Source: Candidatus Woykebacteria bacterium (GTDB lineage: Bacteria > Patescibacteriota > Microgenomatia > Woykebacterales > RBG-16-39-9b). Taken from it: a stretch of 64,000 nucleotides of DNA. The translations under genes were made by a program, and so were the position numbers. Numbering within the stretch: the stretch's first letter is position 1; each line of letters starts with the position of its first letter. This document shows, one piece after another, positions 8,004 through 58,043 of this stretch. The DNA is taken from contig JBBDPM010000001.1 in assembly GCA_040876345.1 (NCBI GenBank), forward strand, positions 270,313 to 334,312, written 5' to 3'. The notes beneath the pieces were generated by a model. It was not told where the DNA came from. It saw only the letters and a list, made by a program, of their open reading frames with translations, and did no database searches.

Positions 8004-8642
8004 ATGTTGTATAAATTTTTAAAGAGAACTCTAGACTTGGGTGGAGCAATTTTTGGTTTATTATTTTTTTCTCCTATTTTTTTAGTTACCGCAGTTGCTA
8101 TAAAGCTCGATTCAAGAGGACCAGTTTTGGTAGAGAAATCAGATCGAGTTGGTGAAGAAGGCAAAATATTCAGAATGTATAAATTTCGTTCCATGGTGGC
8201 AGATGCACATGTTAAAATTAAAAAAGATCCTAGGTATAAAGATCTATATAAAAAATTTGAAAAGAACAATTTTAAGTTGGAAAATGACCCAAGAATTACC
8301 CAGGTTGGAGATTTTATAAGAAAAACTAGCATTGATGAGTTGCCTCAGTTTTTTAATGTTTTGGTAGGCAACATGAGTTTGGTAGGACCTAGAGCTTTGT
8401 ATCCAGAGGAGCTTGCGATTCGCAGAGACGAAAACCAGGATCTTTCAGATCAGATAGATGTTGCACTCAGTGTAAAGCCAGGTTTAACAGGGCCTTGGCA
8501 AGTTTCTGGTAGAGCAGAGCTCGATTTTAGGGAGAGAATCAAACTGGATTCAGAGTATGCTGGGAAAAAGTCGATTGTTTACGATTTTTCCGTATTAGTT
8601 AAGACAGTACCGGCTGTTATAAAAGGGAAAGGGGCTCAGTAA
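8004..8642 (+). CDS. bacterial sugar transferase (initiating phosphoglycosyl transferase, WbaP/PglC-like small form)
   Basis: single N-terminal TM, KLDSRGPVLV...RMYKFRSM...ELPQFFNVLVGNMSLVGPRA motifs diagnostic of the 'bacterial sugar transferase' family. Confidence 0.8.
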   Translation: MLYKFLKRTLDLGGAIFGLLFFSPIFLVTAVAIKLDSRGPVLVEKSDRVGEEGKIFRMYKFRSMVADAHVKIKKDPRYKDLYKKFEKNNFKLENDPRITQVGDFIRKTSIDELPQFFNVLVGNMSLVGPRALYPEELAIRRDENQDLSDQIDVALSVKPGLTGPWQVSGRAELDFRERIKLDSEYAGKKSIVYDFSVLVKTVPAVIKGKGAQ

Positions 8643-10534
8643 TGGGTATTTCTGAATTAAACATCGAGGGTGATAAAGTTGCCAAAAAGTCAAAACACAC
8701 TCTTTTGAAAAGATTAGCTATTATTTTTGGTGTTCTTTTTGTTTTAATCTTAGGGGCTGCGTCATATGTGGGACTTTATGTTGTTCCAAACGTAAAAGCC
8801 TTTCAGGTAAGTATCGAAGGTTCCTATGAAAAAGCTAAAAAAATTCAAAAAGCAGCTGAGGCAGAAGACATACCAAAGGTTAAGGAGGAAGCGACCAATC
8901 TAAAAGAGAGTTTGAATGAATTAAAGAATAATTTGGAAAAGTTTAGCTTTGCCCGCTTTGTGCCTATAGCAGGTGGTTACTATAATGATGCAAACCATCT
9001 TTTAGTAGCTGGAGTTGCCGCCGCCGAAGCTGGTGAAATCGCAGCTGATGGTATTTTGCCTTTTTCAGATGTGCTTGGTCTGAAGGGCCACAAAACAAAA
9101 ACTACAGCCAAAGAAAAAACTCAATTTATAGTAAAGAAGGTAGTTCCGTCGTTAGTCCCCTTACTCGGGGAGTTGGAGGGTAAAATAAATGTTATTGATG
9201 AAGAGCTAAACCAAGTAAACCCGGATAGATATCCAGCCTCTTTTAAAATAAAAGAATTTTCAGTTCGGCAAGGTCTAACTGATGCTAAAGGAAATGTCCA
9301 TCACGTAAGAAACTTTTTGCCGGACATAAAGTTAATTGTCAACACTTTGCCATCCATCTTGGGTGAGCCAAAGGAAAAAACTTACCTAGTTCTTTTTCAG
9401 AATGATAAAGAAATTCGAGCCACCGGTGGGTTCATAACCGCTTACGCTGTGGCTAAAGTCAGGGCTGGAGAACTTGTGGACATTGAAAGCGATGATATTT
9501 ACAAACTGGATAGAAAGTTTTCACCGAAAGAAGCACCGCCAGAACCTCTACGAAAATATTTGATATTAAAAATATTTCCTATCAGAGATTCTAATCTTTC
9601 CCCAGATTTCAAAACTTCCGCTGAGAAGTTCGAAAGCTTTTACAAGACAATTCCCGCTGTCTCCAAAGTTGACGGTATACTTGCCCTGGATACAGAATTT
9701 GTTAGAGCCTTTATGGAGATAACTGGCCCAATTAAGGTTGAAAAGCTTGGAGATACATTCTCAGCCAAGAATAATGAGTATGGTATATCGGATGTGGTGT
9801 ACAAACTTGAGCTTTACGCCGAAACGGTATTTAAGGGAAGTTCCGAGCGAAAAAGTTTTATTGGAGATCTGATGGACGCTCTTATCGACAAGGTTTTGAA
9901 TGCCAAGCCTGAGCAATTTGAGCCGTTGTTTAACACATTTTTGGAACAAGCCAATGAAAAGCACATCCTCTTTTATTTCCACGACGAGAGTGCTCAGAAA
10001 ATAGTGGAAAAGTTTAATTTTGCTGGGAGAATTAAAGACTACGACGGAGATTACTTACATGTAAACAATTCTAATTTTGCAGGGCTCAAGGCTAACCTAT
10101 TCATAACCCAGACTATCGAGCAGGATATTATTACGTCTTCGGATGGGACGATAACAAAGAAAGTTAAGGTGACCCTTAACAACCCAAATAATAAGTTGCT
10201 TGGTTGGTTGAATTCTTACTATCGAAATTGGATGAGGGTTTATGTCCCTAAGAATAGCAAACTAATAAATAAAGAAGTTCAGACTGATTTCAAGGAAAGT
10301 GCAGATTTGGATAAGAAGGTTTTTGAAGGTTTTACCGTTACGCCACCACTGGGAAACTCCGTAACGATCTTTACTTACGAGCTTCCTTTTAAAATAAAGC
10401 CGGGTGATGAGTACAAAATGCTCCTTCAAAGACAACCTGGAATGGACGCTACGAAGATGATTATTCGCCTGAATGGTAAAGAGGTAGAAAAATTTAACCT
10501 TTTGAACGATAAAGAGATAAAAATTAAGTTGTAA
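8642..10534 (+). CDS. DUF4012-like membrane-anchored protein of polysaccharide loci
   Basis: 630 aa, N-terminal TM, large extracytoplasmic domain, translationally coupled (TAATG) to the sugar transferase; family assignment from memory, moderate. Confidence 0.4.
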   Translation: MGISELNIEGDKVAKKSKHTLLKRLAIIFGVLFVLILGAASYVGLYVVPNVKAFQVSIEGSYEKAKKIQKAAEAEDIPKVKEEATNLKESLNELKNNLEKFSFARFVPIAGGYYNDANHLLVAGVAAAEAGEIAADGILPFSDVLGLKGHKTKTTAKEKTQFIVKKVVPSLVPLLGELEGKINVIDEELNQVNPDRYPASFKIKEFSVRQGLTDAKGNVHHVRNFLPDIKLIVNTLPSILGEPKEKTYLVLFQNDKEIRATGGFITAYAVAKVRAGELVDIESDDIYKLDRKFSPKEAPPEPLRKYLILKIFPIRDSNLSPDFKTSAEKFESFYKTIPAVSKVDGILALDTEFVRAFMEITGPIKVEKLGDTFSAKNNEYGISDVVYKLELYAETVFKGSSERKSFIGDLMDALIDKVLNAKPEQFEPLFNTFLEQANEKHILFYFHDESAQKIVEKFNFAGRIKDYDGDYLHVNNSNFAGLKANLFITQTIEQDIITSSDGTITKKVKVTLNNPNNKLLGWLNSYYRNWMRVYVPKNSKLINKEVQTDFKESADLDKKVFEGFTVTPPLGNSVTIFTYELPFKIKPGDEYKMLLQRQPGMDATKMIIRLNGKEVEKFNLLNDKEIKIKL

Positions 10535-11715: not shown

Positions 11716-13026
11716 ATGAAAAATGAGGAATTGATGGAAAAAATCGTCTCTCTTGCCAAGAGGCGAGGCTTCGTTTTCCCTGGAAGTGAGGTTTATGGCG
11801 GGCTTGGTGGAATTTATGACCTTGGTCCTCTGGGAGTGGAACTAGCAAATAATATTAAGCGGTTTTGGTGGAAGACTGTTGTGCAGGATAGAGAAGATGT
11901 AGTTGGATTGGACAGCGCAATTTTGATGAATAGTGAGGTTTGGCGTACTTCCGGCCATGTAAAAAGCTTTAGTGATCCTTTGGTTGAGTGTAAAAATTGC
12001 CACAACCGCTTTCGCGAAGACACGTTGCCAGAATCTAAAAACTGCCCAAATTGTGAAAAGAACGCTTGGACTGACACGAGAATGTTTAATTTAATGTTTA
12101 AAACTCACATTGGTCCTGTTCAAGATGTAGGTTCCGAAACCTATCTTCGGCCAGAAACTGCTCAGGGGATTTTTGTAAATTTTGGAAATGTTATCGATAC
12201 CATGCGGGTAAAACTTCCATTTGGGATAGCTCAAATTGGTAAGGGTTTTAGGAACGAAATAACTACCGGTAATTTTCTTTTTAGAGTTCGTGAGTTTGAA
12301 ATGATGGAGCTTGAGTACTTTACTTATCCGGAAAAAGCAGAGAAAGATTTCGAATACTGGCAAGAGCAAAGAATGAAATGGCACGAGAGCCTAGGTGTAA
12401 CGAAAAAGAATTTGAGGTTTAGAGAACACGCCAATACAGAAAGAGCGCATTATGCCGCTCGTTCAGTCGACATCGAATACAACTGGCCATTCATGGGTTG
12501 GGGAGAGCTTGAGGGAATTGCTAATAGGACAGACTTTGACCTGAAAGCCCATTCAGAGGCTTCTGGCAAGGATTTATCTTACTTTGATGAAGAGACCAAG
12601 AAGAAAATAGTCCCATACGTTATCGAGCCGTCAGTTGGTGTAGGACGCTCAATGCTTGCGGTTTTGGTCGACTCGTATTTTGAAGATGGAGATCGAGTAG
12701 TGCTTAAATTAAAACCACACCTTGCTCCAGTGAAAGTGGCTGTTTTTCCACTTCTTGCCAACAAACCAGAACTCGTCAAGTTAGCTAAAAAAGTTTACTC
12801 AGAACTCAAAATTCATAACTTTGGCCTAGTCGTTTGGGATGATAGGGGAAATATCGGTAAGCGCTACTACGCTCAAGATGAAATTGGTACACCCTATTGT
12901 ATAACTGTTGATTTTCAATCGTTGGAAGATACTACTGTGACAATTCGCGATCGAGATACTACTAAACAGAAGAGGGTCAAAATTAAAGACTTGGAAAAAG
13001 AGTTGAAAGAAAAGTTCCCTTTCTAG
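11716..13026 (+). CDS. glyS: glycine--tRNA ligase, dimeric (alpha2, eukaryote/archaeal/Thermus type)
   Basis: EKIVSLAKRRGFVFPGSEVYGGLGGIYDLGPLGVELANNIK... near-colinear with Thermus-type GlyRS; class II motifs FRNEI, RVREFEMMELEYF; start set at ATG 11716 (ORF track 11680). Confidence 0.9.
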   Translation: MKNEELMEKIVSLAKRRGFVFPGSEVYGGLGGIYDLGPLGVELANNIKRFWWKTVVQDREDVVGLDSAILMNSEVWRTSGHVKSFSDPLVECKNCHNRFREDTLPESKNCPNCEKNAWTDTRMFNLMFKTHIGPVQDVGSETYLRPETAQGIFVNFGNVIDTMRVKLPFGIAQIGKGFRNEITTGNFLFRVREFEMMELEYFTYPEKAEKDFEYWQEQRMKWHESLGVTKKNLRFREHANTERAHYAARSVDIEYNWPFMGWGELEGIANRTDFDLKAHSEASGKDLSYFDEETKKKIVPYVIEPSVGVGRSMLAVLVDSYFEDGDRVVLKLKPHLAPVKVAVFPLLANKPELVKLAKKVYSELKIHNFGLVVWDDRGNIGKRYYAQDEIGTPYCITVDFQSLEDTTVTIRDRDTTKQKRVKIKDLEKELKEKFPF

Positions 13027-13781
13027 GGAAGATCGCGGGGTTGTGAGCCATCGTAGCTGACTTCGTCTTCTTCGAGGCGGCGCACTGGTTTTTCCCTGGT
13101 TTTTTCCTCATGAACGTGAGCCACTAGACCTGCGATTCTACTGATTATGAAAAAACCGTTGCCCAGCTCTGGCGCAAAGCCAAGTTCACTCATTACCGCT
13201 GCAGTTATCCCATCGATATTTAAGCAGAGCTTCTTGCCAACTGCTTTTTCCAGCTCTTTTTCGATTTCCAAGGCAATTTCTATATGTGGGCCTTTGAAAT
13301 CTTGTTCCCCAGCTACTTTCAAGATTGCTTGGGTTCTTGGATCTGTTTCGTAAATTTTGTGCCCATAACCTGGTATGCGCTCACTTTTAAAACGTGCTTT
13401 CTCGACTATATCAGAGGATTTTGAGCTTTTTTTCACTGCGTCTTGAAGAATTTTCGCGCAAGACTCAATTGCACCACCGTGGCTTTCTCCAATCGCTGCT
13501 ACACCATTTGCCACGGCAGTTGATAGAGGAACACCACATGAAGCTGTGATTCGCGCAACCGTAGTTGAAGGGGCCTCTACTCCATGGTCGATAGAAGCTA
13601 CCAAAATAGCATTCAACATCAACTCTTCTTTTTCATTTGGAAGTTCTCCCTTGAGAACAAGAAAAATCGCCTGCGTGAAGCTTACTTTTTTGAGCATTTC
13701 GGTCAATTTGTACCCCCGAATGTGAGGTACTCCGTTAAAGTGCCCAGTTATTCCGCTTTTCCACTTCTTTTCTTCAGCCAT
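13023..13781 (-). CDS. citrate-synthase-like small-domain protein (citryl-CoA lyase-like)
   Basis: 252 aa; citrate synthase family signatures ESHGGAIE, IPGYGHKIY...DPR, C-terminal catalytic Asp region; size and content match the stand-alone citryl-CoA lyase/ACL C-terminal domain. Confidence 0.55.
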   Translation of the reverse strand: MAEEKKWKSGITGHFNGVPHIRGYKLTEMLKKVSFTQAIFLVLKGELPNEKEELMLNAILVASIDHGVEAPSTTVARITASCGVPLSTAVANGVAAIGESHGGAIESCAKILQDAVKKSSKSSDIVEKARFKSERIPGYGHKIYETDPRTQAILKVAGEQDFKGPHIEIALEIEKELEKAVGKKLCLNIDGITAAVMSELGFAPELGNGFFIISRIAGLVAHVHEEKTREKPVRRLEEDEVSYDGSQPRDLP

Positions 13782-13789
13782 AGGATTTA

Positions 13790-14686
13790 CTATTTTAACA
13801 TCTTTTTAAGTAATTTTGGTAAGTCGTCGGGTATTTCGGCAATAGCGACTCCGGCGCTTTCAAGCGCTTTTAATTTGTCGACTCTGTGGCCCATACCAGC
13901 TTCAATTATAGCACCTGCGTGTCCAAGAGCTTGGCCGTGGGGGAGCATTTCAGCAAAAAGTCCGGAGATAAAAGCGGCAACCGGTTTGGTAAATTTCTTG
14001 GATTTAATGAATTCGGCTGCTTCTTCTTCGTAAGTTCCCCCATGCTCGCCAAAAAGCACAACCCCCTTGGTTTCTGGATCTTTCTCAAAAAGTTCAAGTA
14101 AATCGACAAAAGTAGATCCAACAATCATATCTCCGCCTATTCCGGTGACTGTCGATTGCCCAAACCCTTCTTTTTTTAAAATATATGAAACTTCACTTGC
14201 CATCCCACCACTTTTGGAAATTACTCCAACATTACCTGGGGTAAAAGAAAAATTAGGATCGTCTCCACCAATACTTCCAAGTTTCACTTTTCCCGGTGAA
14301 ATAATACCAATGGAAGAAGGACCAACGACCCGAACACCTTTTTCCTTTGCGTAGGCAACTGCATATGCAGTATCTGATATTGGCATATGTTCAGTGAGGA
14401 CGTTAACCAAGGAGATTTTGTGAGCGGCTGCTTCCAATACGGCATCTTTGGCACCCATTTTTGGTACAGCGATGAAGGAGGTGTTTATCTTGGGAAATTT
14501 ATTCAAGGCTTCTTCCACAGTGTCAAAAACAGGGACAGTTTCAACTTTCTGACCGCCTTTTCCGGGAGTTACTCCAGCAAGCACGGCTGTGCTATAAGCA
14601 ACCATCTGCTTGATTGCTCGTTGGCCCTCTTTCCCAGTTGCCCCTTGAACTAAGACTTTTGTGTTTTTATCGATCAAAATAGACAT
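13790..14686 (-). CDS. sucD: succinyl-CoA synthetase alpha-subunit-like (CoA-binding, phosphohistidine GHAGA)
   Basis: KVLVQGATGKEG, GHAGAII catalytic His loop; 298 aa. Confidence 0.8.
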   Translation of the reverse strand: MSILIDKNTKVLVQGATGKEGQRAIKQMVAYSTAVLAGVTPGKGGQKVETVPVFDTVEEALNKFPKINTSFIAVPKMGAKDAVLEAAAHKISLVNVLTEHMPISDTAYAVAYAKEKGVRVVGPSSIGIISPGKVKLGSIGGDDPNFSFTPGNVGVISKSGGMASEVSYILKKEGFGQSTVTGIGGDMIVGSTFVDLLELFEKDPETKGVVLFGEHGGTYEEEAAEFIKSKKFTKPVAAFISGLFAEMLPHGQALGHAGAIIEAGMGHRVDKLKALESAGVAIAEIPDDLPKLLKKMLK

Positions 14687-14688
14687 AT

Positions 14689-15132
14689 CTAAACTAAATT
14701 TACAACTTCAGATACTTTATTGATTTTATGATTTGGTTTTTCATCTGATTTTTCCGGCAGCTCTTTTAGTCTAGGGCCAAATAAAAATTGACAAGTCTCC
14801 ATACCTTTTTGGTTACCAATCTTTATCTCACTTCTTACCCTATCTCCCACAACCAAAAATTCTTGTGGTTCAAATCCAAATTTTTCTATTATTGGGTCAA
14901 ACTCCTTCGTTCCTTCAAGCGGCATCACTTCTATGTAGTCAAAATATGTGTTTAAACCAAGATTACTTATTTGTTCTAGTCTTTTTTGCACGTCTTTTGT
15001 GCGACTTACCAAAGCTAATTTCAAACCCTTTTCATGTACTTCTTCTAAGGCTTCAATCGCCCCGTCTACAAGTTTTTCGTTTTCCGGATCATAAATTGTG
15101 TAGCCAAAATCGAAGATAATAGCTTTTATCAT
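14689..15132 (-). CDS. HAD-superfamily hydrolase (short)
   Basis: IIFDFGYTIYD (DxD motif I), ...VSRTK..., ...VGDRVRSE motif IV. Confidence 0.55.
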   Translation of the reverse strand: MIKAIIFDFGYTIYDPENEKLVDGAIEALEEVHEKGLKLALVSRTKDVQKRLEQISNLGLNTYFDYIEVMPLEGTKEFDPIIEKFGFEPQEFLVVGDRVRSEIKIGNQKGMETCQFLFGPRLKELPEKSDEKPNHKINKVSEVVNLV

Positions 15133-16343
15133 CTGCCCTCTTTACGTTTGTGTTCATTAACTAGATCAACCAAAACTTTGGCTGTGCTGGTCATTGGTGT
15201 TTCTGGGCCAAAGATGTGAAAGTTAAATCCTTCTTTCTTACCTACCTCTTTGAGCATCTCAAATGCTTCTTCGAAGCGCGGACCACCGCGGCGGATTACG
15301 ATTGGGTAAGAGGGTTTTGGTTTGATTGACCGCAAAGCATCAACAAAGCCAGCCAAAGTTTCGTAAATATCGGTAAAATTAGCGGTTGCCCCAACAAACC
15401 AAGCACCATTTAAGCCTTTTTTAGAAAGAATTAGTTTAGAAAGTTTTTCAAGTTTTTCTCTTGGAGGGTTTCCAGAATGTTCAGTGTAATTTGCTGGCTT
15501 TCCGCCAAGAGCAATCAAAGCGTCCATATTCACTAATGATCCACCACCACCGGCTGCAATTACTGCTATATCACCATCAAGCTCAATATAAGTAGAACCA
15601 GCACTTCCCCGGTGATCATTAGCGTCAATTTCTTTTGCCGCAAGTTCTGCTTCTGTTGGTTTGCGACCAAGTACATCTCGCGGTGGAAAATCAAGGTCAG
15701 TGTGGCGGAAATCGGCTTCATCATCCAAGATGACTTTAGCATCAGCAGCGTAAAATTCTTCATCTTCAGTTTCAATCAAAGGGTTTATCTCAACAAGCCT
15801 AGCATCATACTTGTTAAAGACCTCCCACATACTGAGCAAGATCTTAGTTAAAGAGAGGAAATGAATTCCTGAAAAACCTGCCTCAGAAAGTATCTCTCGT
15901 GCTTGCCAAGGTTGCAAACCCTCAGTTGGATTAACAGCAATTTTTTGGATAGATTCTTTATCCCTGGCTAATTCTTCGATTTCTACACCACCTTTTTTTG
16001 AAACTAAGGCAACGGGGGATTGGGCCGAAGTGTCAAAAGTAATACTTAAGTAGTATTCAGCCGTTTTATCAATTAGATATGGTTCGATTAGAACTTTTTC
16101 TATTTTTTCAGCACCTGTTTCCTTACCAATTAATTCTCTAACTGCGCTTTTAACCTCATCAAGACTTTTGCAAGGTTTAATTAGGCCGGATTTACCCCGA
16201 CTGCCAGATAAAACTTGAGCCTTTACTATTACTGGAAGGTCAAGGTCTTTAATGTCTTCTACAGAAGAAAAAACTTGGCCGTTAGGTACCGGAATTTGGG
16301 AGTTTTTGAAAAGTTTTTTGCCTTCAAATTCATAGAGCCTCAT
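15129..16343 (-). CDS. sucC: succinyl-CoA synthetase beta-subunit-like (ATP-grasp)
   Basis: MRLYEFEGKKLF N-term, ATP-grasp and CoA-ligase C-terminal domain (GGGGS...), 404 aa. Confidence 0.8.
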   Translation of the reverse strand: MRLYEFEGKKLFKNSQIPVPNGQVFSSVEDIKDLDLPVIVKAQVLSGSRGKSGLIKPCKSLDEVKSAVRELIGKETGAEKIEKVLIEPYLIDKTAEYYLSITFDTSAQSPVALVSKKGGVEIEELARDKESIQKIAVNPTEGLQPWQAREILSEAGFSGIHFLSLTKILLSMWEVFNKYDARLVEINPLIETEDEEFYAADAKVILDDEADFRHTDLDFPPRDVLGRKPTEAELAAKEIDANDHRGSAGSTYIELDGDIAVIAAGGGGSLVNMDALIALGGKPANYTEHSGNPPREKLEKLSKLILSKKGLNGAWFVGATANFTDIYETLAGFVDALRSIKPKPSYPIVIRRGGPRFEEAFEMLKEVGKKEGFNFHIFGPETPMTSTAKVLVDLVNEHKRKEGR

Positions 16344-16348
16344 AAAAG

Positions 16349-17014
16349 TTAATTTTTATCTACAATTTCTAGTTGGGGCTTATATTTAACGATTTTGTTG
16401 GCAGGTATATTACCGCGTATTGCGGCAAGTGGGTAAACAAGAGTATTCTTTCCGACAAAGGTGCCTGGATCTGTCACCACATTGCATCCAAGTTTAACAC
16501 CATCTCCGACAATTGCTCCGAATTTTTCCAATCCAGTTCCAACTTTCTTACCTTCGACTTCAACTTTTATCTCTAGGTCGGCGGCGCCATTTTTGTAATT
16601 AGCAAGAACAGCTCCGGCGGCTAAATTAACATCGCTTCCGACGACTGAGTCGCCTGCGTAGTTAAAATGAGATAGATTTGTGCTGTTGCCGACTATTGAG
16701 TGCTTAACCTCGGACCCATGTAAAACCCTGGAGTTTACGCCAATAATTGCCCCGTCTCTTATGAGAACGCCTTGACCAACTTTTGTTCCGTTTCCGATTA
16801 ATGCTGGGCCGATAATCTTTGCACTTGAGTCAATCTTGACATTTTCATCAGCGTAAACACCTTCGGAGATTTCTTTAAATCCCTCTAATCTTTGGCCATT
16901 TTCTTCGACAAATTTTTCGATTTGAGAAAGTGCATCCCAAGGGTGTTCTAGATTTTCGAAAAGACCTTTGAAATAAAGTTTGTCAGTATCAATAAACTCA
17001 GTCAAATTGACCAT
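16349..17014 (-). CDS. left-handed beta-helix (hexapeptide-repeat) acyltransferase-like protein; possible stand-alone GlmU C-terminal domain
   Basis: multiple [LIV]GxxxxI/V hexapeptide repeats (IGNGTKVGQGVLIRDGAIIGVNSRV...). Confidence 0.55.
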   Translation of the reverse strand: MVNLTEFIDTDKLYFKGLFENLEHPWDALSQIEKFVEENGQRLEGFKEISEGVYADENVKIDSSAKIIGPALIGNGTKVGQGVLIRDGAIIGVNSRVLHGSEVKHSIVGNSTNLSHFNYAGDSVVGSDVNLAAGAVLANYKNGAADLEIKVEVEGKKVGTGLEKFGAIVGDGVKLGCNVVTDPGTFVGKNTLVYPLAAIRGNIPANKIVKYKPQLEIVDKN

Positions 17015-17105
17015 AAGAAGCTAGATTATACCTGAAATTGCCCAAACTTAGCAAGTTTAAGACCTGTAGGATCATTTATCAGGGTTCAAAGTGGTTATTT
17101 AAAGC

Positions 17106-20771: not shown

Positions 20772-22058
20772 ATGGAGTTTGTAAAGAGGGTTGTACCTCA
20801 AGGAATTAAAAATATTTATCATTATCTTCAGGCTTTTTTGGCCGCCCTCTTTTATGGTTTTCCTTCCCGAAAATTGAAAGTAATAGGAATTACCGGCACT
20901 GATGGAAAAACAACTACTGTAAGCCTAGCCTATCACATTCTAAAATCAGCCGGTGTCAAAGCTTCGATGATTTCCTCTGTTAAAGCGGTGATTGGCCAAG
21001 CTAGCCTTGATACAGGATTTCATGTTACAACTCCATCCCCACTTGAATTACAGAAATATTTAAATATGATGGTTAAAGCCGGCAGTGACGTTGCGCTGCT
21101 GGAAGTAACCTCTCATGGTCTTGATCAAGGCAGAGTCGCTTTTATAGATTTTTTTGAAGGTGTAGTTACCAACGTTACTCGTGAGCATTTGGATTATCAT
21201 AAGACTTATAAGCGGTATTTGGAAGCAAAATCAAAAATTTTAAACGATGTGAAGTTTAGAATATTAAATGCGGACGATCCGTCGTTTGAGGAACTTTCAA
21301 AAAAAGGTTCTGGTCAGATGCTCAGTTTTGGTGTGCGCGGTGATGCTGATTTTACAGCCAAAAATATTAACCAATCTGAGAAATATACTAATTTTGATGT
21401 GAAGATAAAAGGAAGAGAAAAGCAGGAGAAAACCTTGAATATAGCTACACCACTTTACGGTGAATTCAACATATCAAACTGTTTGGCAGCGATTGCTATA
21501 TCCAAGACTTTTGATGTGGAAGACGCCACAATCGTAAGTTCTTTAAAAGAGTTTCCTGGGGTAGAAGGTAGAATGGAAAGGATAGATGAGGGGCAAAAAT
21601 TCCAAGTCATTATAGATTTTGCTCATACACCAAACTCATTTGAGCACACTCTGAAATCCTTGAAGAAGGCGGCCAAAAATAAACTTATTTGTGTGTTTGG
21701 CGCAGCAGGGGAAAGAGATAAGTCTAAAAGAGCTGTGATGGGTAATATCGCCGGGAGAATCTGCAACTACTCTATTTTGACTGCCGAGGATCCAAGGCAT
21801 GAGAATGTAAATGATATTATTGGCGAAATTGCAAAGGGTTTAGAGGAGGCCGGGGGCGTTTTAGGAAGTACATATTGGAAAATTCCAGATAGAGCTAAGG
21901 CTATTCGAGAAGCAATTATATCGTTGGCAAGCGATGGTGACACTGTTGTTCTGCTCGGAAAAGGGCACGAAAAGAGCCTGAATTTAGAAGGTGTCGAGTA
22001 TCCTTGGAGTGATCAAATTTCGGCAAGAAATGCTCTTTTGGAGAAACTTAAAAAATGA
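20772..22058 (+). CDS. murE: Mur ligase, probable UDP-MurNAc-L-Ala-D-Glu:diamino-acid ligase (MurE), short form
   Basis: GITGTDGKTTT P-loop, Mur ligase middle/C domains; 428 aa (short). Confidence 0.65.
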   Translation: MEFVKRVVPQGIKNIYHYLQAFLAALFYGFPSRKLKVIGITGTDGKTTTVSLAYHILKSAGVKASMISSVKAVIGQASLDTGFHVTTPSPLELQKYLNMMVKAGSDVALLEVTSHGLDQGRVAFIDFFEGVVTNVTREHLDYHKTYKRYLEAKSKILNDVKFRILNADDPSFEELSKKGSGQMLSFGVRGDADFTAKNINQSEKYTNFDVKIKGREKQEKTLNIATPLYGEFNISNCLAAIAISKTFDVEDATIVSSLKEFPGVEGRMERIDEGQKFQVIIDFAHTPNSFEHTLKSLKKAAKNKLICVFGAAGERDKSKRAVMGNIAGRICNYSILTAEDPRHENVNDIIGEIAKGLEEAGGVLGSTYWKIPDRAKAIREAIISLASDGDTVVLLGKGHEKSLNLEGVEYPWSDQISARNALLEKLKK

Positions 22059-22798
22059 AAAATGTTACAGCAGTTGTAGTTGGTGGTGGTGAAGGGACAC
22101 GTTTAAACGAAGGGATGCCTTCCCCGCGCCCGAAGGTCCTTTACGAAGTTTTGGGTAAGCCGTTGATATCATATTCTTTAAAGGCTTTGAAAGACGTTGG
22201 AATCAACGATATTATTGTAGTTGTCGGTTACATGGGCGAAGAAATAAAGAAGGTTTTAGGACCATCGTACCGATACACTATTCAAAAAGAACCCTTAGGT
22301 ACGGCCGATGCAGCTCTCTCAGCTCTATCAAGAATTCCAGACGAAACCCTTCACGTCGCTGTGCTGTACGGAGCTGATATCTACACAAATTATCTTTTAA
22401 AGGAGGTTATATCTTTGCACTTGGAGAAGGAGCCAGAGGTCACATTAGTTACTAAAATTATGGAAGAGCCTGGAAAACTAGGAAGGATTGTTCGAGATGA
22501 GTCTGGAGAAATTTCCGCAATTGTTGAGGAAAAGGTCGCTACAGACGAGCAGAAAAAAATTAAAGAGGTCAATGATGGTTGCTTTATCTTTAAGAAAGAC
22601 TGGCTTTTAGAGAATATCAAAGCGATCTCACTATCTGCTGCCAAGGAATATTTCCTGACCGATCTTGTTGAAATTGCAATCAATCAAAAAGTTAAAGTGG
22701 CAACTTACACAATCGAGCGTGATGGAGATTGGATTGGAGTCGATACGACAGAGGATATCAAAAGCGCGGAAGAGTTACTGAAAGGGCAGGAAAGATGA
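22055..22798 (+). CDS. sugar-phosphate nucleotidyltransferase (GlmU N-terminal-domain-like, stand-alone)
   Basis: VVVGGGEGTRLNEGMPSPRPKVLYEVLGKPLISY nucleotidyltransferase signature; 247 aa without LbH domain. Confidence 0.6.
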   Translation: MKNVTAVVVGGGEGTRLNEGMPSPRPKVLYEVLGKPLISYSLKALKDVGINDIIVVVGYMGEEIKKVLGPSYRYTIQKEPLGTADAALSALSRIPDETLHVAVLYGADIYTNYLLKEVISLHLEKEPEVTLVTKIMEEPGKLGRIVRDESGEISAIVEEKVATDEQKKIKEVNDGCFIFKKDWLLENIKAISLSAAKEYFLTDLVEIAINQKVKVATYTIERDGDWIGVDTTEDIKSAEELLKGQER

Positions 22799-26186: not shown

Positions 26187-26609
26187 ATGAAAGTTTTTGT
26201 GGATTCAGACGTGGTTATCTCATCTTTACTTTCTCAATCTGGGGCAGCTTATATTTTGACCAACGCCAAAAACCTTCAACTTTTTATTTCAAATATTGCC
26301 TATCAAGAATTAAAAATTGTTACTGAAAGGTTGGGAATAGAAAAGCAAAAACTTGATGATCTTTTAAGAGAACGGTTTAAGACAGTTGAATTAGAAGAAA
26401 ATTTATCTGTAATAAAAGGAAAATATGGAAATCTTGTATTAGATCAAAATGATGCTCATATTTTGGCTGGTGCAAAAGCAGAAAGTGCAAGGTTTTTGGT
26501 TTCATATAGCACCAAACATTTTAAGGCCGAGGAAATTAAGAGAGTCTTTAATATTATTAGTTTAAAACCGGCTTTTATGCTTCAATATTTGAGGAGTTTG
26601 CAAAAATAG
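26187..26609 (+). CDS. PIN-domain protein (VapC-like toxin)
   Basis: MKVFVDSDVVISSL N-terminal acidic motif of PIN domains, 140 aa, 9 nt downstream of HTH gene. Confidence 0.6.
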   Translation: MKVFVDSDVVISSLLSQSGAAYILTNAKNLQLFISNIAYQELKIVTERLGIEKQKLDDLLRERFKTVELEENLSVIKGKYGNLVLDQNDAHILAGAKAESARFLVSYSTKHFKAEEIKRVFNIISLKPAFMLQYLRSLQK

Positions 26610-53540: not shown

Positions 53541-53615
53541 GGGCACTTAGCTCAGTGGTAGAGCACTGCGTTCACATCGCAGGGGTCGTAGGTTCAAATC
53601 CTACAGTGCCCACCA
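53541..53615 (+). tRNA. tRNA-Val (anticodon CAC), CCA encoded
   Basis: cloverleaf read by hand: acceptor GGGCACU/AGUGCCC, D GCUC-AGUGGUA-GAGC, anticodon stem CUGCG/CGCAG loop UUCACAU, T GUAGG-UUCAAAU-CCUAC; promoter TTGATT-18-TAAAAT upstream. Confidence 0.85.
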
Positions 53616-53726: not shown

Positions 53727-54851
53727 ATGGGTAGGAAATTAGATCAGGTAGATTATAATTCTCTAGATGATGCGAAGATTGCTTTTATTGAAGCAAGCAG
53801 AAGAACTTTGGGTTTTGCAAAAAATTATGGTTTTGTGCCAGATAAGAGGCTTGGTTCAAGTGCAAATATTTTTACCCTGAACCTAAAACCATTTATAAAA
53901 TTTAATCCCAGTCTCTATACTACTTTAATAACTGAAGGGCTTGGGACTGCGGATGATGCCAGGCCAGATGACTTGACTTCCGCTGAGGAAGAGAAGTTTT
54001 GGTACAACATAGCCTTCAAAACTTTGGGCGCTTTAACTAATGATGTTGCCTCAGCTGGAGTCCAACCTATTTTGATTTCTCTTTATCTACCTTCCAGCTC
54101 CCCCGAGATTGTTTTTAATAAGAGCTTCCGCAAAGGGTTTTTATCTGGGATTGTTGATGGTTGTCGAAAGATCGGGTGCGTCTATATATCGGGCGAGACT
54201 CCCCAATTAAAAAGTAAAATCTTTAAAGGTAAGCTGGATATTGCCGGTGCTGTGTTCGGTGTTGTACCCTCTGGTAGAAAACCGACTGCGGGTAGCGTCA
54301 AGGCTGGGGACAAAATAGTTTTTGTCGAAAGTTCTGGACCTCACGAGAACGGCTTTACCCCTATTAGAGAACTGGCTGGAAGGATTAAAAAGGGTTTTAG
54401 AACAAAGCTTCCTGGCGGTCGGGACTTTTGGGAGGGGGCCAATGAACCTTCGGTTCTTTACTCACCACTGGTGCAATCAATTTTGTCGGTGGGAATAACG
54501 CCGACAAACATCGAGCCAATTACAGGGCACGGTTGGTTAAAACTTATGAGATCAAATAAACCAATCAGGTATGTTATCGAAAAAATACTTCCAATCCCAA
54601 ATATCTTCAAATTTATTGAAAAAGAAAACGGCTCAACGACAGAAGAAATGATAAAAATTTTCAACTATGGTGTTGGACTTGTAGTCTTTATAAAAGATGA
54701 TAAAGACGCAGTTAAAGTAGTTGAGGTTGCTAAGGGTCACAAACTTAAGTCTATAGTGGCAGGTTATACTGAGAGATCAACAAAAAGGGAAGTTTACGTA
54801 AAACCTCTAGGTATCCTCTTGACAGGTAAAGAATTTGTATTAAGAAAATAG
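53727..54851 (+). CDS. purM: phosphoribosylformylglycinamidine cyclo-ligase-like (PurM/AIR-synthase family)
   Basis: colinear blocks vs PurM: EGLGTAD~DGVGTK, NDVASAGVQPILISLY~NDLVVQGAEPLFFLDY, ISGETPQL~VGGETAEM, SSGPHENGF~SSGPHSNGY, FNYGVGLVV~FNCGVGMII. Confidence 0.6.
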   Translation: MGRKLDQVDYNSLDDAKIAFIEASRRTLGFAKNYGFVPDKRLGSSANIFTLNLKPFIKFNPSLYTTLITEGLGTADDARPDDLTSAEEEKFWYNIAFKTLGALTNDVASAGVQPILISLYLPSSSPEIVFNKSFRKGFLSGIVDGCRKIGCVYISGETPQLKSKIFKGKLDIAGAVFGVVPSGRKPTAGSVKAGDKIVFVESSGPHENGFTPIRELAGRIKKGFRTKLPGGRDFWEGANEPSVLYSPLVQSILSVGITPTNIEPITGHGWLKLMRSNKPIRYVIEKILPIPNIFKFIEKENGSTTEEMIKIFNYGVGLVVFIKDDKDAVKVVEVAKGHKLKSIVAGYTERSTKREVYVKPLGILLTGKEFVLRK

Positions 54852-54855
54852 ATTT

Positions 54856-55254
54856 ATGAACTGGAAATTTTTTGTTTATGAAATGGAAAAGCTATACAAG
54901 AAAACAGACTATGACCCAGATATAGTTGTTGGTATTGCCAAAGGTGGAATTGTTCCAGCAAGACTTTTAGCATCCTATCTTGGAGTCGGTGAGATGTACT
55001 GTCTAACCATAAGGAAATTTGGTCAGGAAAGAAAGTTAGTCTCAAAAATCACTGGCGATTTAGAGAATAAAAAAGTTTTACTGGTTGAAGATATGTTGGA
55101 AACTGGAGGCAGCCTCATAGCTGCTAGGAAATATTTGGAGTCGAAGGGAACAGTGGTTAAAACTGTTTGTTTGTATACTACACCTACTTCTAAAGTTGAA
55201 CCAGATTTTTATCTAAAAAAAATCAACAAAGTAGAAAAGTTTCCGTGGGAGTAA
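54856..55254 (+). CDS. type I phosphoribosyltransferase-domain protein (purine PRTase-like)
   Basis: VLLVEDMLETGGSL PRPP-binding motif; 132 aa. Confidence 0.55.
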   Translation: MNWKFFVYEMEKLYKKTDYDPDIVVGIAKGGIVPARLLASYLGVGEMYCLTIRKFGQERKLVSKITGDLENKKVLLVEDMLETGGSLIAARKYLESKGTVVKTVCLYTTPTSKVEPDFYLKKINKVEKFPWE

Positions 55255-55315
55255 ACTGGTGAGCGCCGTAAAACCCTTCTTGCCAAAAAGGTCTTCGCCT
55301 GTTATATAATCTAGT

Positions 55316-56752: not shown

Positions 56753-58030
<1,278 letters not shown>

Positions 58031-58043
58031 ATTAGAGTCCCTA

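What the first reader, a model, noticed from the sequence alone, without database searches (positions are those of the whole stretch)
13023..16343. SucC-like + SucD-like + stand-alone citrate-synthase-like domain: candidate citryl-CoA synthetase / citryl-CoA lyase (split ATP-citrate-lyase) module
On the minus strand there is an ATP-grasp beta subunit (15129-16343), a CoA-binding alpha subunit with GHAGA phosphohistidine loop (13790-14686), and a 252-aa protein carrying citrate-synthase signatures (HGGA, GYGHKIY...DPR) but only the small catalytic domain (13023-13781). A HAD hydrolase lies in between. This gene set matches the two-enzyme citryl-CoA synthetase + citryl-CoA lyase system known from Hydrogenobacter, and the domain content of ATP-citrate lyase. 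It is not an ordinary TCA succinyl-CoA synthetase context. In an organism of this reduced type, a citrate/acetyl-CoA/oxaloacetate interconversion module would be metabolically significant.
Basis: partly seen in the sequence, partly recalled or inferred. Interest (0 to 1): 0.55.

Follow-up and report, generated by a model that had tools for sequence, protein, structure and literature searches.

The report
Split citrate-cleaving enzyme beside cell-wall genes
A tiny-genome (CPR, Woykebacteria-type) bacterium carries a three-gene, unfused version of ATP-citrate lyase in one operon with the acetyl-CoA-using half of a split GlmU, which suggests it makes acetyl-CoA from scavenged citrate for cell-wall sugar synthesis rather than for carbon fixation.

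Summary
On the minus strand, 13023-17014 is one tightly packed five-gene operon: LbH acetyltransferase, CcsA-like beta, small HAD protein, CcsB-like alpha, Ccl.

- **Ccl:** the 252-aa protein passes NCBIfam's citryl-CoA lyase cutoff. It matches Hydrogenobacter CCL (241 bits) far better than any citrate synthase (92 bits or less).
- **Beta:** it has an ACL-type citrate-binding domain, not the SucC domain. It falls in the CCS/ACL clade.
- **Alpha:** it scores slightly higher to archaeal SucD, but carries both CcsB-specific insertions.
- **Not SCS:** both subunits miss the SucC/SucD cutoffs.

The exact Ccl protein is already named citryl-CoA lyase in an NCBI Woykebacteria MAG, and a 2022 preprint noted CCS/CCL homologs in CPR and DPANN. 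So this is a new member of a known kind.

What is new here is the context. In 13 of 17 CPR loci a GlmU-like or LbH acetyltransferase gene directly precedes CcsA. In this genome GlmU is split, with its uridylyltransferase half in the mur cluster. In one relative the whole cassette sits inside the mur operon.

Most likely role: citrate plus ATP plus CoA gives acetyl-CoA for GlcN-1-P acetylation, plus oxaloacetate. The direction and the citrate source are inferred, not shown.

The parts
17025..17054 (-). Sigma-70-like promoter candidate (TTGCTA-18-TATAAT) for the operon, in the divergent intergenic region shared with mraZ
   Evidence: 10 of 12 matches, ending about 10 nt before the LbH start codon at 17014. 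This is a consensus match only; such sites are not enriched in the region (4 found, 9.1 expected).
16349..17014 (-). Stand-alone left-handed beta-helix (LbH) acetyltransferase, the acetyl-CoA-dependent GlcN-1-P N-acetyltransferase half of a split GlmU. First gene of the operon.
   Evidence: Hexapep. TIGR03992 Arch_glmU, positions 209-391 of 393, 142.6 bits; best solved match is the C-terminal acetyltransferase domain of S. tokodaii ST0452 (residues 202-393, 91.8 bits), then GlmU C-terminal domains; 28-38% identical to the LbH or GlmU C-terminus upstream of CcsA in other CPR loci.
15129..16343 (-). CcsA/AclB-like beta subunit: N-terminal ATP-grasp domain plus C-terminal ACL-type citrate-binding domain
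   Evidence: PF08442 155 bits and PF16114 95 bits (cutoff 26.8), with no PF00549; 6hxq_B 231 bits. C-terminal domain scores CCS 124, ACL 75-85, SCS 40 or less; clade placement and the motifs GGGGS(265), SG291NPP, AN322FT324D, RR352GGP.
14689..15132 (-). Small cap-less HAD-superfamily protein inserted between the beta and alpha genes. Motif I is DFGYT, with Gly at the Asp+2 position. Role unknown.
   Evidence: HAD_2 and Hydrolase hits, no equivalog reached; an ortholog about 50% identical, in the same position and with the same DFGYT motif, occurs in L083, whose CcsA is only 56% identical.
13790..14686 (-). CcsB-like alpha subunit: CoA-binding Rossmann domain (G15-A-T-G-K-E-G) plus phosphohistidine domain (G-H256-A-G-A)
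   Evidence: CoA_binding and Ligase_CoA; below the SucD cutoffs (307.9 against 336); 2yv2 SucD 284 bits, 6hxq_A CcsB 242 bits; shares the CcsB-type insertions IGGDDP (139-144) and the 3-residue insert before GHAGA, plus SKSGG (157), all absent from 7 SucD sequences.
13023..13781 (-). Citryl-CoA lyase (Ccl), a truncated citrate-synthase fold. Last gene of the operon.
   Evidence: NF004869 288.5 bits, above the cutoff of 212; 6hxp_A 241 bits over residues 4-252. H66, H101, H141, R149, D190 and R215 are invariant in 19 diverse homologs; the identical protein is named citryl-CoA lyase in an NCBI Woykebacteria MAG.
13015..13030 (-). Terminator-like hairpin at the Ccl stop codon, convergent with the end of glyS
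   Evidence: A pattern match only, with no enrichment over shuffles.
22055..22798 (+). Uridylyltransferase (N-terminal) half of the split GlmU, between murE and murC. Inferred functional partner of the LbH protein.
   Evidence: NF010934 GlmU, 177.4 bits, model positions 2-237 of 447; the same arrangement occurs in L083; in L036 this half lies directly upstream of LbH-CcsA-CcsB-Ccl.

Best explanation
The operon encodes an unfused, three-polypeptide ATP-citrate-lyase system, meaning citryl-CoA synthetase CcsAB plus citryl-CoA lyase Ccl. It is co-transcribed with the acetyltransferase half of a split GlmU.

Mechanism, inferred by homology to solved CCS, ACL and CCL structures:
1. ATP bound in the beta ATP-grasp domain phosphorylates His256 of the alpha subunit.
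2. The phospho-His loop moves to the citrate site, formed by the beta C-terminal domain (G291, N322, T324, R352), and makes citryl-phosphate.
3. CoA, bound to the alpha Rossmann domain, attacks it to give citryl-CoA plus Pi.
4. Ccl cleaves citryl-CoA by a retro-Claisen reaction to acetyl-CoA plus oxaloacetate, using citrate-synthase-type residues (H101, H141, D190; oxaloacetate binders H66, R149, R215).

Proposed physiology, inferred from conserved gene neighbourhood:
- Acetyl-CoA is used by the co-encoded LbH enzyme to acetylate glucosamine-1-phosphate.
- The separately encoded uridylyltransferase half then makes UDP-GlcNAc for the adjacent peptidoglycan and glycan pathways.
- CoA is recycled.

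This is an anabolic acetyl-CoA supply from scavenged citrate, like the cytosolic role of eukaryotic ACLY, and not part of a reductive TCA cycle.

Shown: gene content, family assignment, motifs, clade placement and conservation of the neighbourhood. Inferred: substrate, direction, coupling to LbH, the source of citrate and the fate of oxaloacetate.
For: **Enzyme identity**
- Ccl passes NF004869 and scores 241 bits to 6hxp_A against 92 or less to citrate synthases. Six catalytic or oxaloacetate-binding residues are invariant.
- The beta has PF16114 Citrate_bind. Its best solved match is 6hxq_B CcsA. Its C-terminal domain discriminates CCS/ACL from SCS by 35 bits or more.
- The beta motifs SGNPP, ANFTD and RRGGP are identical to the positions aligned with human ACLY G309, N346, T348 and R379.
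- The CCS/ACL clade is separated from SucC at 91% bootstrap.
- The alpha has the GHAGA loop and two CcsB-type insertions.

**One operon**
- Spacers are 5, -4, 2 and 8 nt, with a promoter-like site upstream and a terminator-like hairpin downstream.

**Coupling to GlmU and cell wall**
- An LbH-only or full-length GlmU-like gene lies directly upstream of CcsA in 13 of 17 CPR loci. These fall in two different flanking backgrounds, one mraZ-divergent and one Nramp-associated.
- The GlmU uridylyltransferase half is separate, in the mur cluster.
- In L036 the cassette lies inside the mur operon: MurE-like, GlmU-NT, LbH, CcsA, CcsB, Ccl, MurC, MurB.
- The window around the operon is cell-envelope genes and holds no TCA genes.
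Against: - No biochemistry exists for any CPR or DPANN member.
- The ACL/CCS reaction is close to equilibrium (established knowledge), so sequence cannot give direction.
- In DPANN relatives the same module lies in PEP carboxylase-aconitase-IDH operons. That is a different role and possibly the opposite direction.
- Four of 17 CPR loci lack the GlmU/LbH neighbour.
- No citrate transporter or oxaloacetate-consuming enzyme was found in the 64-kb window. The rest of the genome could not be inspected, so it is unknown whether other acetyl-CoA sources exist.
- By overall score the alpha is nearer archaeal SucD than CcsB, and its grouping with CcsB has only 64% bootstrap.
- The 17 loci are phylogenetically related, so 13 of 17 is not 13 independent events.
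- The HAD protein has no role in this model.
Confidence: 0.6

Rival explanations
1. Same enzymes, opposite direction. The module works as an ATP-conserving citrate synthase (acetyl-CoA + oxaloacetate + ADP + Pi gives citrate + CoA + ATP). This would either feed a short oxidative branch or conserve thioester energy during fermentation.
For: In Diapherotrites (L086, whose Ccl is 100% identical to P0043) the module is the last part of a PEP carboxylase-aconitase-isocitrate dehydrogenase-CcsA-CcsB-Ccl operon, next to malic enzyme. L091 has aconitase-IDH-CcsA-CcsB. In those operons the module occupies the place where a citrate synthase would be expected. The reaction is near equilibrium (established knowledge).
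Against: In this window and its CPR relatives there is no aconitase, IDH or PEP carboxylase near the module. The conserved neighbour is instead an acetyl-CoA consumer (LbH/GlmU), which would compete with citrate synthesis. Citrate would be a dead end unless it is exported.
Confidence: 0.15
2. Citrate cleavage is real, but the LbH neighbour is only a syntenic hitch-hiker. The module supplies acetyl-CoA and oxaloacetate for general use, for example acetate plus ATP formation or aspartate-family needs, with no special link to amino-sugar acetylation.
For: Four of 17 CPR loci and all DPANN loci lack the LbH/GlmU neighbour. The operon readily accepts unrelated guest genes: HAD, an IMPase-family protein, 23S_rRNA_IVP, toxin-antitoxin genes, a membrane protein, and thioredoxin with DsbD. 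Aspartate-consuming PurA and the mur pathway are also in the window.
Against: The LbH/GlmU-CcsA adjacency survives in two unrelated flanking contexts, and in both the split and the fused form of GlmU. In L036 the cassette is embedded in the mur operon directly after the GlmU N-terminal half.
Confidence: 0.15
3. An ordinary succinyl-CoA synthetase (SucCD) next to a degenerate or truncated citrate synthase.
For: The alpha's best solved matches are archaeal SucD (284 and 255 bits). Both subunits give strong sub-threshold hits to the SucC and SucD models.
Against: Both subunits are below the curated SucC/SucD cutoffs (243.7 against 370; 307.9 against 336). The beta's C-terminal domain is PF16114, not PF00549, and scores 40 bits or less to any SCS. 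The SucC motifs NGAGL, GGI(T/V)R and R(V/L)xGT are replaced. The beta separates from SucC at 91% bootstrap. The alpha has CcsB-type insertions. The 252-aa protein passes the CCL cutoff and fails every citrate-synthase cutoff.
Confidence: 0.03
4. Part of a complete reductive TCA cycle for autotrophy, as in Hydrogenobacter and Leptospirillum.
For: CCS and CCL are the signature enzymes of that pathway in Aquificaceae and Nitrospirae (papers cited). Ccl relatives from those groups are in the same family.
Against: The organism is a Woykebacteria-type CPR bacterium, and its closest complete relative has a 915-kb chromosome. No rTCA enzyme occurs in 64 kb. The module is in a clade separate from the autotrophs' CCS. 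The genomic context is cell wall.
Confidence: 0.03
5. The same fold and mechanism act on a related acid, for example 2-methylcitrate giving propionyl-CoA, or citramalate or malate, rather than on citrate.
For: The citrate-synthase fold also includes 2-methylcitrate synthases, which give sub-threshold hits. The CPR/DPANN clade is uncharacterised and distinct from both tested enzymes.
Against: All four positions aligned with the ACLY citrate-site residues are identical. The oxaloacetate-binding His and Arg residues of Ccl are invariant. The best hits are consistently to citrate-specific enzymes.
Confidence: 0.04

Closest known systems
Hydrogenobacter thermophilus citryl-CoA synthetase (CcsA/CcsB, PDB 6HXQ) plus citryl-CoA lyase (Ccl, PDB 6HXP)
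   Same: Three separate polypeptides with the same domain content. These are the best solved relatives of the beta (231 bits) and of Ccl (241 bits). The alpha shares both CcsB-specific insertions and SKSGG. The phosphohistidine loop and the citrate-synthase-type catalytic residues are conserved.
   Different: - It is not in the Aquificae/Nitrospirae CcsA or CcsB clades, each of which has 100% bootstrap support and excludes it.
- The citrate-site motifs are ANFTD and RRGGP, where H. thermophilus CcsA has ANNTR and RRNGP.
- The alpha is 298 aa and lacks the C-terminal extension that H. thermophilus and Leptospirillum CcsB share.
- The genes are collinear (beta-alpha-Ccl), whereas Aquificaceae loci show ccl alone within 7 kb either side.
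- The host is a non-autotrophic CPR bacterium and the context is cell wall, not rTCA.
Two-subunit ATP-citrate lyase (Chlorobium AclB/AclA, PDB 6HXJ) and human ACLY
   Same: The beta groups with Chlorobium AclB (81% bootstrap, one ACL sequence only) and has ACL-type motifs: SG, ANFT and RRGGP, at the positions aligned with ACLY G309, N346, T348 and R379. The gene order beta, alpha, Ccl mirrors the domain order of ACL. The proposed physiological role, making anabolic acetyl-CoA from citrate, is that of eukaryotic cytosolic ACLY (established knowledge).
   Different: The alpha and the Ccl module are separate ORFs with a stop codon and an 8-nt spacer, and this is conserved across CPR and DPANN loci. 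Ccl is much closer to free CCL (241 bits) than to the AclA C-terminal module (about 80 bits) or the ACLY module (about 47 bits). Whether the three proteins assemble into an ACL-like complex is unknown.
Succinyl-CoA synthetase SucCD
   Same: Same superfamily and catalytic logic: ATP-grasp domain, phosphohistidine, CoA-binding Rossmann domain. The alpha's highest raw scores are to archaeal SucD.
   Different: It fails both curated cutoffs. The beta's substrate domain is PF16114, not PF00549. The diagnostic motifs and indels differ. It separates from SucC in the tree. In Nitrospirae genomes, bona fide SucCD are encoded alongside CCS and are clearly distinct.
CCS/CCL homologs of DPANN archaea (for example the Diapherotrites operon in L086)
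   Same: Same CPR+DPANN clade of beta subunits (81% bootstrap) and the same collinear CcsA-CcsB-Ccl order. Their existence in DPANN and CPR was noted in bioRxiv 10.1101/2022.10.25.513756.
   Different: The DPANN contexts are TCA-branch genes (PEP carboxylase, aconitase, IDH, malic enzyme). The CPR context is GlmU acetyltransferase and peptidoglycan genes.

Membership tests
Citryl-CoA lyase (NCBIfam NF004869 / H. thermophilus Ccl) | Scores above the curated family cutoff and well above citrate-synthase models | tested here: met
   NF004869 288.5 bits against a cutoff of 212. The best citrate-synthase model scores 100 bits against a cutoff of 421.
Citryl-CoA lyase (NCBIfam NF004869 / H. thermophilus Ccl) | End-to-end similarity to the solved CCL; a truncated citrate-synthase fold of about 250-260 aa lacking the citrate-synthase N-terminal region | tested here: met
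   6hxp_A residues 2-253 align with query residues 4-252, 241 bits; only positions 164-355 of 357 in PF00285 are covered.
Citryl-CoA lyase (NCBIfam NF004869 / H. thermophilus Ccl) | Citrate-synthase-type catalytic His/His/Asp and oxaloacetate-binding His/Arg/Arg are conserved | tested here: met
   H66, H101, H141, R149, D190 and R215 are invariant in 19 diverse homologs. Their correspondence to pig citrate synthase H238, H274, H320, R329, D375 and R401 is from established knowledge and was not aligned here.
Citryl-CoA lyase (NCBIfam NF004869 / H. thermophilus Ccl) | Cleaves citryl-CoA to acetyl-CoA plus oxaloacetate | not testable with these tools
   Needs an enzyme assay.
Citryl-CoA synthetase CcsAB (Hydrogenobacter type) | Large subunit is an ATP-grasp domain plus an ACL-type citrate-binding domain, and its closest solved relative is CcsA | tested here: met
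   PF08442 and PF16114; 6hxq_B 231 bits is the top hit; the C-terminal domain scores 124 bits to CCS and 40 or less to SCS.
Citryl-CoA synthetase CcsAB (Hydrogenobacter type) | Small subunit carries the CcsB-specific insertions and SKSGG, plus the GHAGA phosphohistidine loop | tested here: met
   IGGDDP, the 3-residue insert before GHAGA, and SKSGG are shared with H. thermophilus and Nitrospirae CcsB. All are absent in 7 SucD sequences.
Citryl-CoA synthetase CcsAB (Hydrogenobacter type) | Falls inside the clade of the characterised Aquificae/Nitrospirae CcsA and CcsB | tested here: not met
   those clades have 100% support and exclude the window proteins. The window beta lies in a CPR+DPANN clade that groups with AclB (81%). 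The tree is neighbour-joining with limited sampling.
Citryl-CoA synthetase CcsAB (Hydrogenobacter type) | CcsB C-terminal extension beyond the SucD-like core (353 aa in H. thermophilus) | tested here: not met
   the 298-aa alpha aligns to 6hxq_A residues 13-292 only. Leptospirillum CcsB aligns through residue 336.
ATP-citrate lyase (AclAB / ACLY) | CoA-binding/phosphohistidine subunit fused to the citryl-CoA-lyase module in one polypeptide | tested here: not met
   separate ORFs with a stop codon and an 8-nt spacer; they are separate in all CPR and DPANN loci.
ATP-citrate lyase (AclAB / ACLY) | Citrate-site residues (human G309, N346, T348, R379; the list is from Sun et al. 2010, recalled from memory because the paper could not be opened) | tested here: met
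   the alignment to 3mwd_A places these at window beta G291, N322, T324 and R352, all identical; the same motifs occur in Chlorobium AclB.
Succinyl-CoA synthetase SucCD | Reaches the curated SucC and SucD equivalog cutoffs | tested here: not met
   beta 243.7 against 370; alpha 307.9 against 336.
Succinyl-CoA synthetase SucCD | Beta C-terminal domain is PF00549 Ligase_CoA with the GGI(T/V)R and R(V/L)xGT motifs | tested here: not met
   PF16114 is found instead; the motifs are ANFTD and RRGGP.
Citrate synthase | Full-length fold of about 370-430 aa that passes a citrate-synthase family cutoff | tested here: not met
   The protein is 252 aa, and all citrate-synthase models score 100 bits or less against cutoffs of 332 or more.
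GlmU (bifunctional GlcN-1-P acetyltransferase / GlcNAc-1-P uridylyltransferase), here split | An LbH domain homologous to the GlmU/ST0452 acetyltransferase domain, and a separate NTP-transferase domain homologous to the GlmU N-terminus | tested here: met
   for LbH (16349-17014). for the N-terminal half (22055-22798; 177 bits, positions 2-237 of 447). Neither reaches a full-length cutoff, as expected for half proteins.
GlmU (bifunctional GlcN-1-P acetyltransferase / GlcNAc-1-P uridylyltransferase), here split | Acetylates GlcN-1-P with acetyl-CoA | not testable with these tools
   Needs an enzyme assay. The acceptor specificity of LbH enzymes cannot be read from sequence.

The most novel reading that the evidence does not exclude
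Microgenomates-type CPR bacteria carry a mobile, conserved cassette (GlmU acetyltransferase, CcsA, CcsB, Ccl) that works as a prokaryotic counterpart of the eukaryotic cytosolic ACLY route. In this reading, citrate taken from the host or environment is the acetyl donor for cell-wall amino sugars in cells that have no TCA cycle. The CPR+DPANN enzymes would also be the unfused sister lineage, or the direct precursor, of fused ATP-citrate lyase, since they combine ACL-type citrate-site motifs and collinear beta-alpha-Ccl genes with a free Ccl.
Probability: 0.35. Interest if true: 0.65.

Novelty: new member of a known kind. Interest (0 to 1): 0.45.

Why it matters
CCS and CCL are usually read as markers of the reductive TCA cycle and of autotrophy. 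This case shows the same enzymes in an ultra-small, host-dependent bacterium, wired to peptidoglycan precursor synthesis instead. That has three consequences:

1. It warns against scoring carbon-fixation potential from these genes in MAG surveys.
2. It gives a concrete, testable answer to where some CPR bacteria get acetyl-CoA, and it names citrate as a metabolite they may need from a host. That is useful for cultivation attempts.
3. It provides an unfused, ACL-like lineage for studying how ATP-citrate lyase was assembled from CCS and CCL.

Tried and rejected
- **Ordinary SucCD plus truncated citrate synthase:** rejected on cutoffs, domain content, motifs, indels and tree.
- **Recent horizontal insertion into this genome:** suggested because the operon is almost the only minus-strand block and local GC skew flips. 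Rejected because the same position between glyS-recO and mraZ-rsmH-ftsL-PBP is conserved in L001-L004, L083 and L088, and GC content is unremarkable.
- **HAD insert unique to this genome:** my first impression. Rejected because L083 has an ortholog at the same position.
- **Riboswitch or other RNA element in the divergent promoter region:** none found at E of 1 or below, and none at gathering score in the whole window except one tRNA.
- **Literature confirmation of the ACLY citrate-site residue list:** five attempts failed and Sun et al. 2010 is not held, so the list is marked as recalled from memory.
- **Prior description of a GlmU-CCS/CCL link:** no paper in the library holds both 'citryl-CoA' and 'GlmU'. 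This is not proof of absence.
- **Structure prediction and fold search:** not run, because sequence matches to solved CCS, CCL and ACL structures were already decisive.
- **Whole-genome inventory of other acetyl-CoA or citrate genes:** could not be done.

Full report
**Observation**

The quoted motifs are there: GHAGA at alpha 255-259; SHGGA at 100, GYGHKIY at 138 and DPR at 147 in the small protein. The domain assignments are highly significant.

A fifth gene belongs to the unit, an LbH (hexapeptide-repeat) acetyltransferase at 16349-17014. The five genes are separated by 5, -4, 2 and 8 nt. A TTGCTA-18-TATAAT promoter-like site ends about 10 nt before the first start codon, and a terminator-like hairpin sits at the last stop codon. 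Both are consensus matches only. No Rfam element is present. This is almost the only minus-strand block in the 64-kb window.

**Source organism**

The 252-aa protein is 100% identical to an NCBI protein named 'MAG: citryl-CoA lyase [Candidatus Woykebacteria bacterium]', found on contigs up to 469 kb. Woykebacteria belong to the Microgenomates group of the Patescibacteria (CPR). The nearest species-representative genome is a 915-kb chromosome (L003).

**The lyase**

The 252-aa protein passes the curated NCBIfam citryl-CoA lyase model NF004869 (288.5 bits, cutoff 212). All citrate-synthase models score 100 bits or less against cutoffs of 332 or more. Its best solved relative is Hydrogenobacter thermophilus CCL (6hxp_A, 241 bits, end to end). 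The best citrate synthase scores 92 bits, the Chlorobium AclA C-terminal module about 80, and human ACLY about 47.

In an alignment of 19 homologs down to 51% identity, H66, H101, H141, R149, D190 and R215 are invariant. From established knowledge of citrate synthase, these correspond to the catalytic His/His/Asp and the oxaloacetate-binding His/Arg/Arg.

**The beta subunit**

Pfam finds ATP-grasp_2 plus PF16114, the ATP-citrate-lyase citrate-binding domain (95 bits, cutoff 26.8), rather than the Ligase_CoA domain of SucC. The protein is far below the SucC cutoffs (243.7 against 370).

| Query | H. thermophilus CcsA | Chlorobium AclB | Methanothrix ACL | Human ACLY | Best SCS |
|---|---|---|---|---|---|
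| Whole beta (bits) | 231 | 188 | 121.5 | 122.7 | 173 |
| C-terminal domain only (bits) | 124 | 85 | 79 | 75 | 40 or less |

In the alignment to human ACLY (3mwd_A), the residues I recall as the citrate site (G309, N346, T348, R379; Sun et al. 2010, a paper I could not open) fall on identical residues G291, N322, T324 and R352.

A multiple alignment shows these motifs:
- GGGGS, where SucC has NGAGL.
- SGNPP, where SucC has GGGA.
- ANFTD, as in AclB and ACLY; H. thermophilus and Nitrospirae CcsA have AN/SNTR and SucC has GGI(T/V)R.
- RRGGP, as in ACL; CcsA has RRN/SGP and SucC has R(V/L)xGT.

**The alpha subunit**

This is the least clear-cut part. It has the CoA-binding and phosphohistidine domains and misses the SucD cutoffs only narrowly (307.9 against 336). 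Its best solved matches are archaeal SucD (284 and 255 bits), ahead of H. thermophilus CcsB (242). For comparison, a Leptospirillum CcsB scores 430 bits to H. thermophilus CcsB and 175 to SucD.

However, the window alpha, and all CPR and DPANN alphas encoded between a CcsA-like and a Ccl gene, share three features with CcsB: a 4-residue insertion (IGGxDP), a 3-residue insertion just before the GHAGA loop, and SKSGG in place of SRSGT. None of these occurs in any of the seven SucD sequences examined, including the SucD paralogs of the same Nitrospirae genomes. The window alpha lacks the C-terminal extension of H. thermophilus and Leptospirillum CcsB.

**Trees**

I built neighbour-joining trees (BLOSUM62 distances, 100 bootstraps, 26-27 sequences).
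- *Beta:* a CCS/ACL clade is separated from SucC (91%). Inside it are a CPR+DPANN clade (81%) that groups with Chlorobium AclB (81%), and a separate H. thermophilus + Nitrospirae CcsA clade (100%).
- *Alpha:* CPR+DPANN join CcsB with only 64% support.

Sampling is thin, with one ACL for beta and none for alpha, so the sister relationship to ACL is a lead and not a result.

**Distribution and prior knowledge**

A scan of one genome per GTDB species found at least 574 species encoding a Ccl relative. They include:
- Aquificaceae and Leptospirillum/Nitrospirae, the classical CCS/CCL users.
- Many Zixibacteria and Ignavibacteria.
- CPR lineages: Woykebacteria, Curtissbacteria and others. The beta-subunit protein search adds Daviesbacteria and Microgenomates.
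- DPANN archaea.

JGI already labels some of the beta homologs 'citryl-CoA synthetase large subunit'. NCBI names for the beta are vague: hypothetical, ATP-grasp, or acetate-CoA ligase family.

A 2022 preprint (bioRxiv 10.1101/2022.10.25.513756) explicitly reports CCS/CCL homologs in DPANN and CPR that are mis-annotated as SCS or citrate synthase. A DPANN survey lists them in a few MAGs. A 2025 paper notes aclAB annotations enriched in Saccharimonadia. So the presence of the module in CPR is not new.

**Gene order across lineages**

- In Aquificaceae, Zixibacteria and Ignavibacteria, ccl stands alone within 7 kb on either side.
- In Nitrospirae, ccsA-ccsB and ccl are separated by another gene, and bona fide sucCD lie downstream.
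- In CPR and DPANN the three genes are collinear and nearly abutting, in the same order as the domains of ACL.

**Genomic context, the new element**

The window around the operon is cell-envelope biosynthesis:
- UDP-GlcNAc 2-epimerase, glycosyltransferases, a Wzy-like protein, a ManC-like protein and a Bac_transf protein.
- The mraZ-rsmH-ftsL-PBP-murE...murC-murB cluster.
- MurA, Alr, Ddl and MurF.
- MraY, MurD, FtsW, MurG, FtsA and FtsZ.

The window contains no TCA enzyme, citrate carrier or other acetyl-CoA enzyme.

The LbH protein matches only the C-terminal acetyltransferase domain of archaeal-type GlmU (TIGR03992 positions 209-391 of 393). Its best solved match is the acetyltransferase domain of S. 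tokodaii ST0452, followed by GlmU. The missing uridylyltransferase half is encoded separately between murE and murC (22055-22798; 177 bits to GlmU, positions 2-237 of 447). GlmU is therefore split, and its acetyl-CoA-using half heads the CCS/CCL operon.

**Conservation of the link**

Among 17 CPR loci, 13 have an LbH-only gene or a full-length GlmU-like gene directly upstream of ccsA on the same strand.
- *LbH-only, divergent from mraZ:* the window, L001, L002, L004, L083 and L088.
- *Full-length GlmU-like gene:* L003, which keeps the same mraZ-divergent position, and L081, L082, L085, L089 and L090, where it lies next to an Nramp gene.
- *Inside the mur operon:* L036.
- *No such neighbour:* L045, L053, L078 and L084.

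The window LbH is 28-38% identical to these neighbours or to their C-terminal domains.

In L036 the order is MurE-like, GlmU-NT, LbH, CcsA, CcsB, Ccl, MurC, MurB. Relative to the window's murE, GlmU-NT, murC, murB, the cassette sits inside the mur operon right after the GlmU N-terminal half.

The linkage therefore persists through at least three different flanking arrangements and through fusion or fission of GlmU. The loci are related, so this does not amount to 13 independent events. No paper in the searchable library mentions citryl-CoA together with GlmU.

**A contrasting context**

In a Diapherotrites archaeon (L086, whose Ccl is identical to P0043), the module ends a PEP carboxylase-aconitase-IDH-CcsA-CcsB-Ccl operon next to malic enzyme. 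L091 has aconitase-IDH-CcsA-CcsB. The same enzyme clade is thus used in a TCA-branch context elsewhere. Because the ACL reaction is near equilibrium (established knowledge), the direction may differ there.

**Guest genes**

- The HAD gene between ccsA and ccsB is not unique to this window. L083, whose CcsA is 56% identical, has an ortholog about 50% identical in the same place. Both have motif I DFGYT, with Gly where HAD phosphatases normally have the second Asp.
- L003 has instead an IMPase-family gene between the GlmU-like gene and ccsA.
- L083 and L004 have a homologous 160-aa hydrophobic protein between ccsB and ccl.
- Other loci carry 23S_rRNA_IVP, toxin-antitoxin or thioredoxin/DsbD genes inside the operon.

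I have no supported role for the HAD protein.

**Conclusion**

With high confidence (about 0.85-0.9), this is a CCS/CCL-type, unfused ACL system and not an SCS plus citrate synthase. With moderate confidence (about 0.5), its job in this organism is to cleave citrate to supply acetyl-CoA to the co-encoded GlcN-1-P acetyltransferase for UDP-GlcNAc and peptidoglycan synthesis, with oxaloacetate as a by-product of unknown fate. The composite confidence is 0.6.

The finding is a new member of a known kind, because the enzymes are already annotated and already noted in CPR. Its operon context gives a specific, testable physiological hypothesis. It also warns against reading these genes as evidence for autotrophy.

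Noticed in passing
window 22055-22798 (+) and 16349-17014 (-): GlmU is split into two genes 5 kb apart on opposite strands. The uridylyltransferase half lies between murE and murC. The acetyltransferase half heads the CCS/CCL operon. Close relatives have either the same split (L083, L036) or a fused GlmU-like gene (L003, L081, L082, L085, L089, L090).
   Followed up: yes
L086 1184-8907 (Diapherotrites archaeon; Ccl identical to P0043) and L091 1702-7120: DPANN-type operons: PEP carboxylase-aconitase-isocitrate dehydrogenase-CcsA-CcsB-Ccl, with malic enzyme and an ADP-forming acyl-CoA synthetase-like gene nearby. The module may act there as an ATP-conserving citrate synthase feeding 2-oxoglutarate synthesis, or as a short reductive branch.
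   Followed up: partly
window 14689-15132; L083 9137-9580: A conserved 147-aa cap-less HAD protein inside the operon has motif I DFGYT, with Gly at the Asp+2 general acid/base position. This suggests a non-canonical or non-phosphatase function. L003 has a non-homologous IMPase-family phosphatase as an operon guest instead.
   Followed up: partly
L001 (DASVHF010000076.1), L003 (OZ246414.1), L036 (CAZXEC010000001.1): The public record labels look wrong. L001, labelled 'Candidatus Nanoarchaeia archaeon', carries bacterial MraZ, RsmH, FtsL and GlyRS in Woykebacteria synteny. L003, labelled 'uncultured Gammaproteobacteria', is a 915-kb chromosome syntenic with this CPR window. L036 carries the same label and has the CPR-type cassette.
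   Followed up: partly
L081, L082, L085, L089, L090 (gene just upstream of the GlmU-like gene): An Nramp-family divalent-metal transporter gene recurs next to the GlmU-like-CcsA-CcsB-Ccl cassette in Daviesbacteria/Microgenomates-type loci. A possible link to metal-citrate chemistry is pure speculation.
   Followed up: no
L083 10480-10962; L004 6516-7001: A homologous, strongly hydrophobic protein of about 160 aa with no Pfam match lies between ccsB and ccl in two CPR loci. It is absent from the window and might be a small membrane or transport component.
   Followed up: partly
L081 11394-12692; L082 11437-12807; L090 7842-9317: A 432-491-aa protein with no Pfam match follows ccl in several Daviesbacteria/Microgenomates loci. 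Its function is unknown.
   Followed up: partly
window 53727-63649: A cluster of purine-nucleotide genes: AIR-synthase-related, HPRT-like, IMPDH, PurA, PurH, PurN, PurD and PurF-like. It is notable in a CPR genome, because these organisms are often described as unable to make nucleotides. PurA also consumes aspartate, a possible sink for oxaloacetate.
   Followed up: no
window 26187-26609: A PIN-domain (toxin-like) gene sits in the middle of the mur gene run, just before murA.
   Followed up: no
window 8642-10534: A 630-aa DUF4012 protein is conserved next to recO in L002, L003 and L004 (47-58% identity). Function unknown.
   Followed up: no
result list: The window's own beta subunit did not return at 100% identity in the large protein collection (best 83%), although its Ccl neighbour did (P0001). 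The beta may be missing from, or differently called in, the source assembly's annotation.
   Followed up: no
window 1-64000: Strong strand bias: nearly all genes are on the plus strand and the cumulative GC skew rises steadily. The only real dip is over the minus-strand CCS/CCL operon (about 14-16 kb). Only one tRNA (Val-CAC, 53541-53615) is found in 64 kb.
   Followed up: partly
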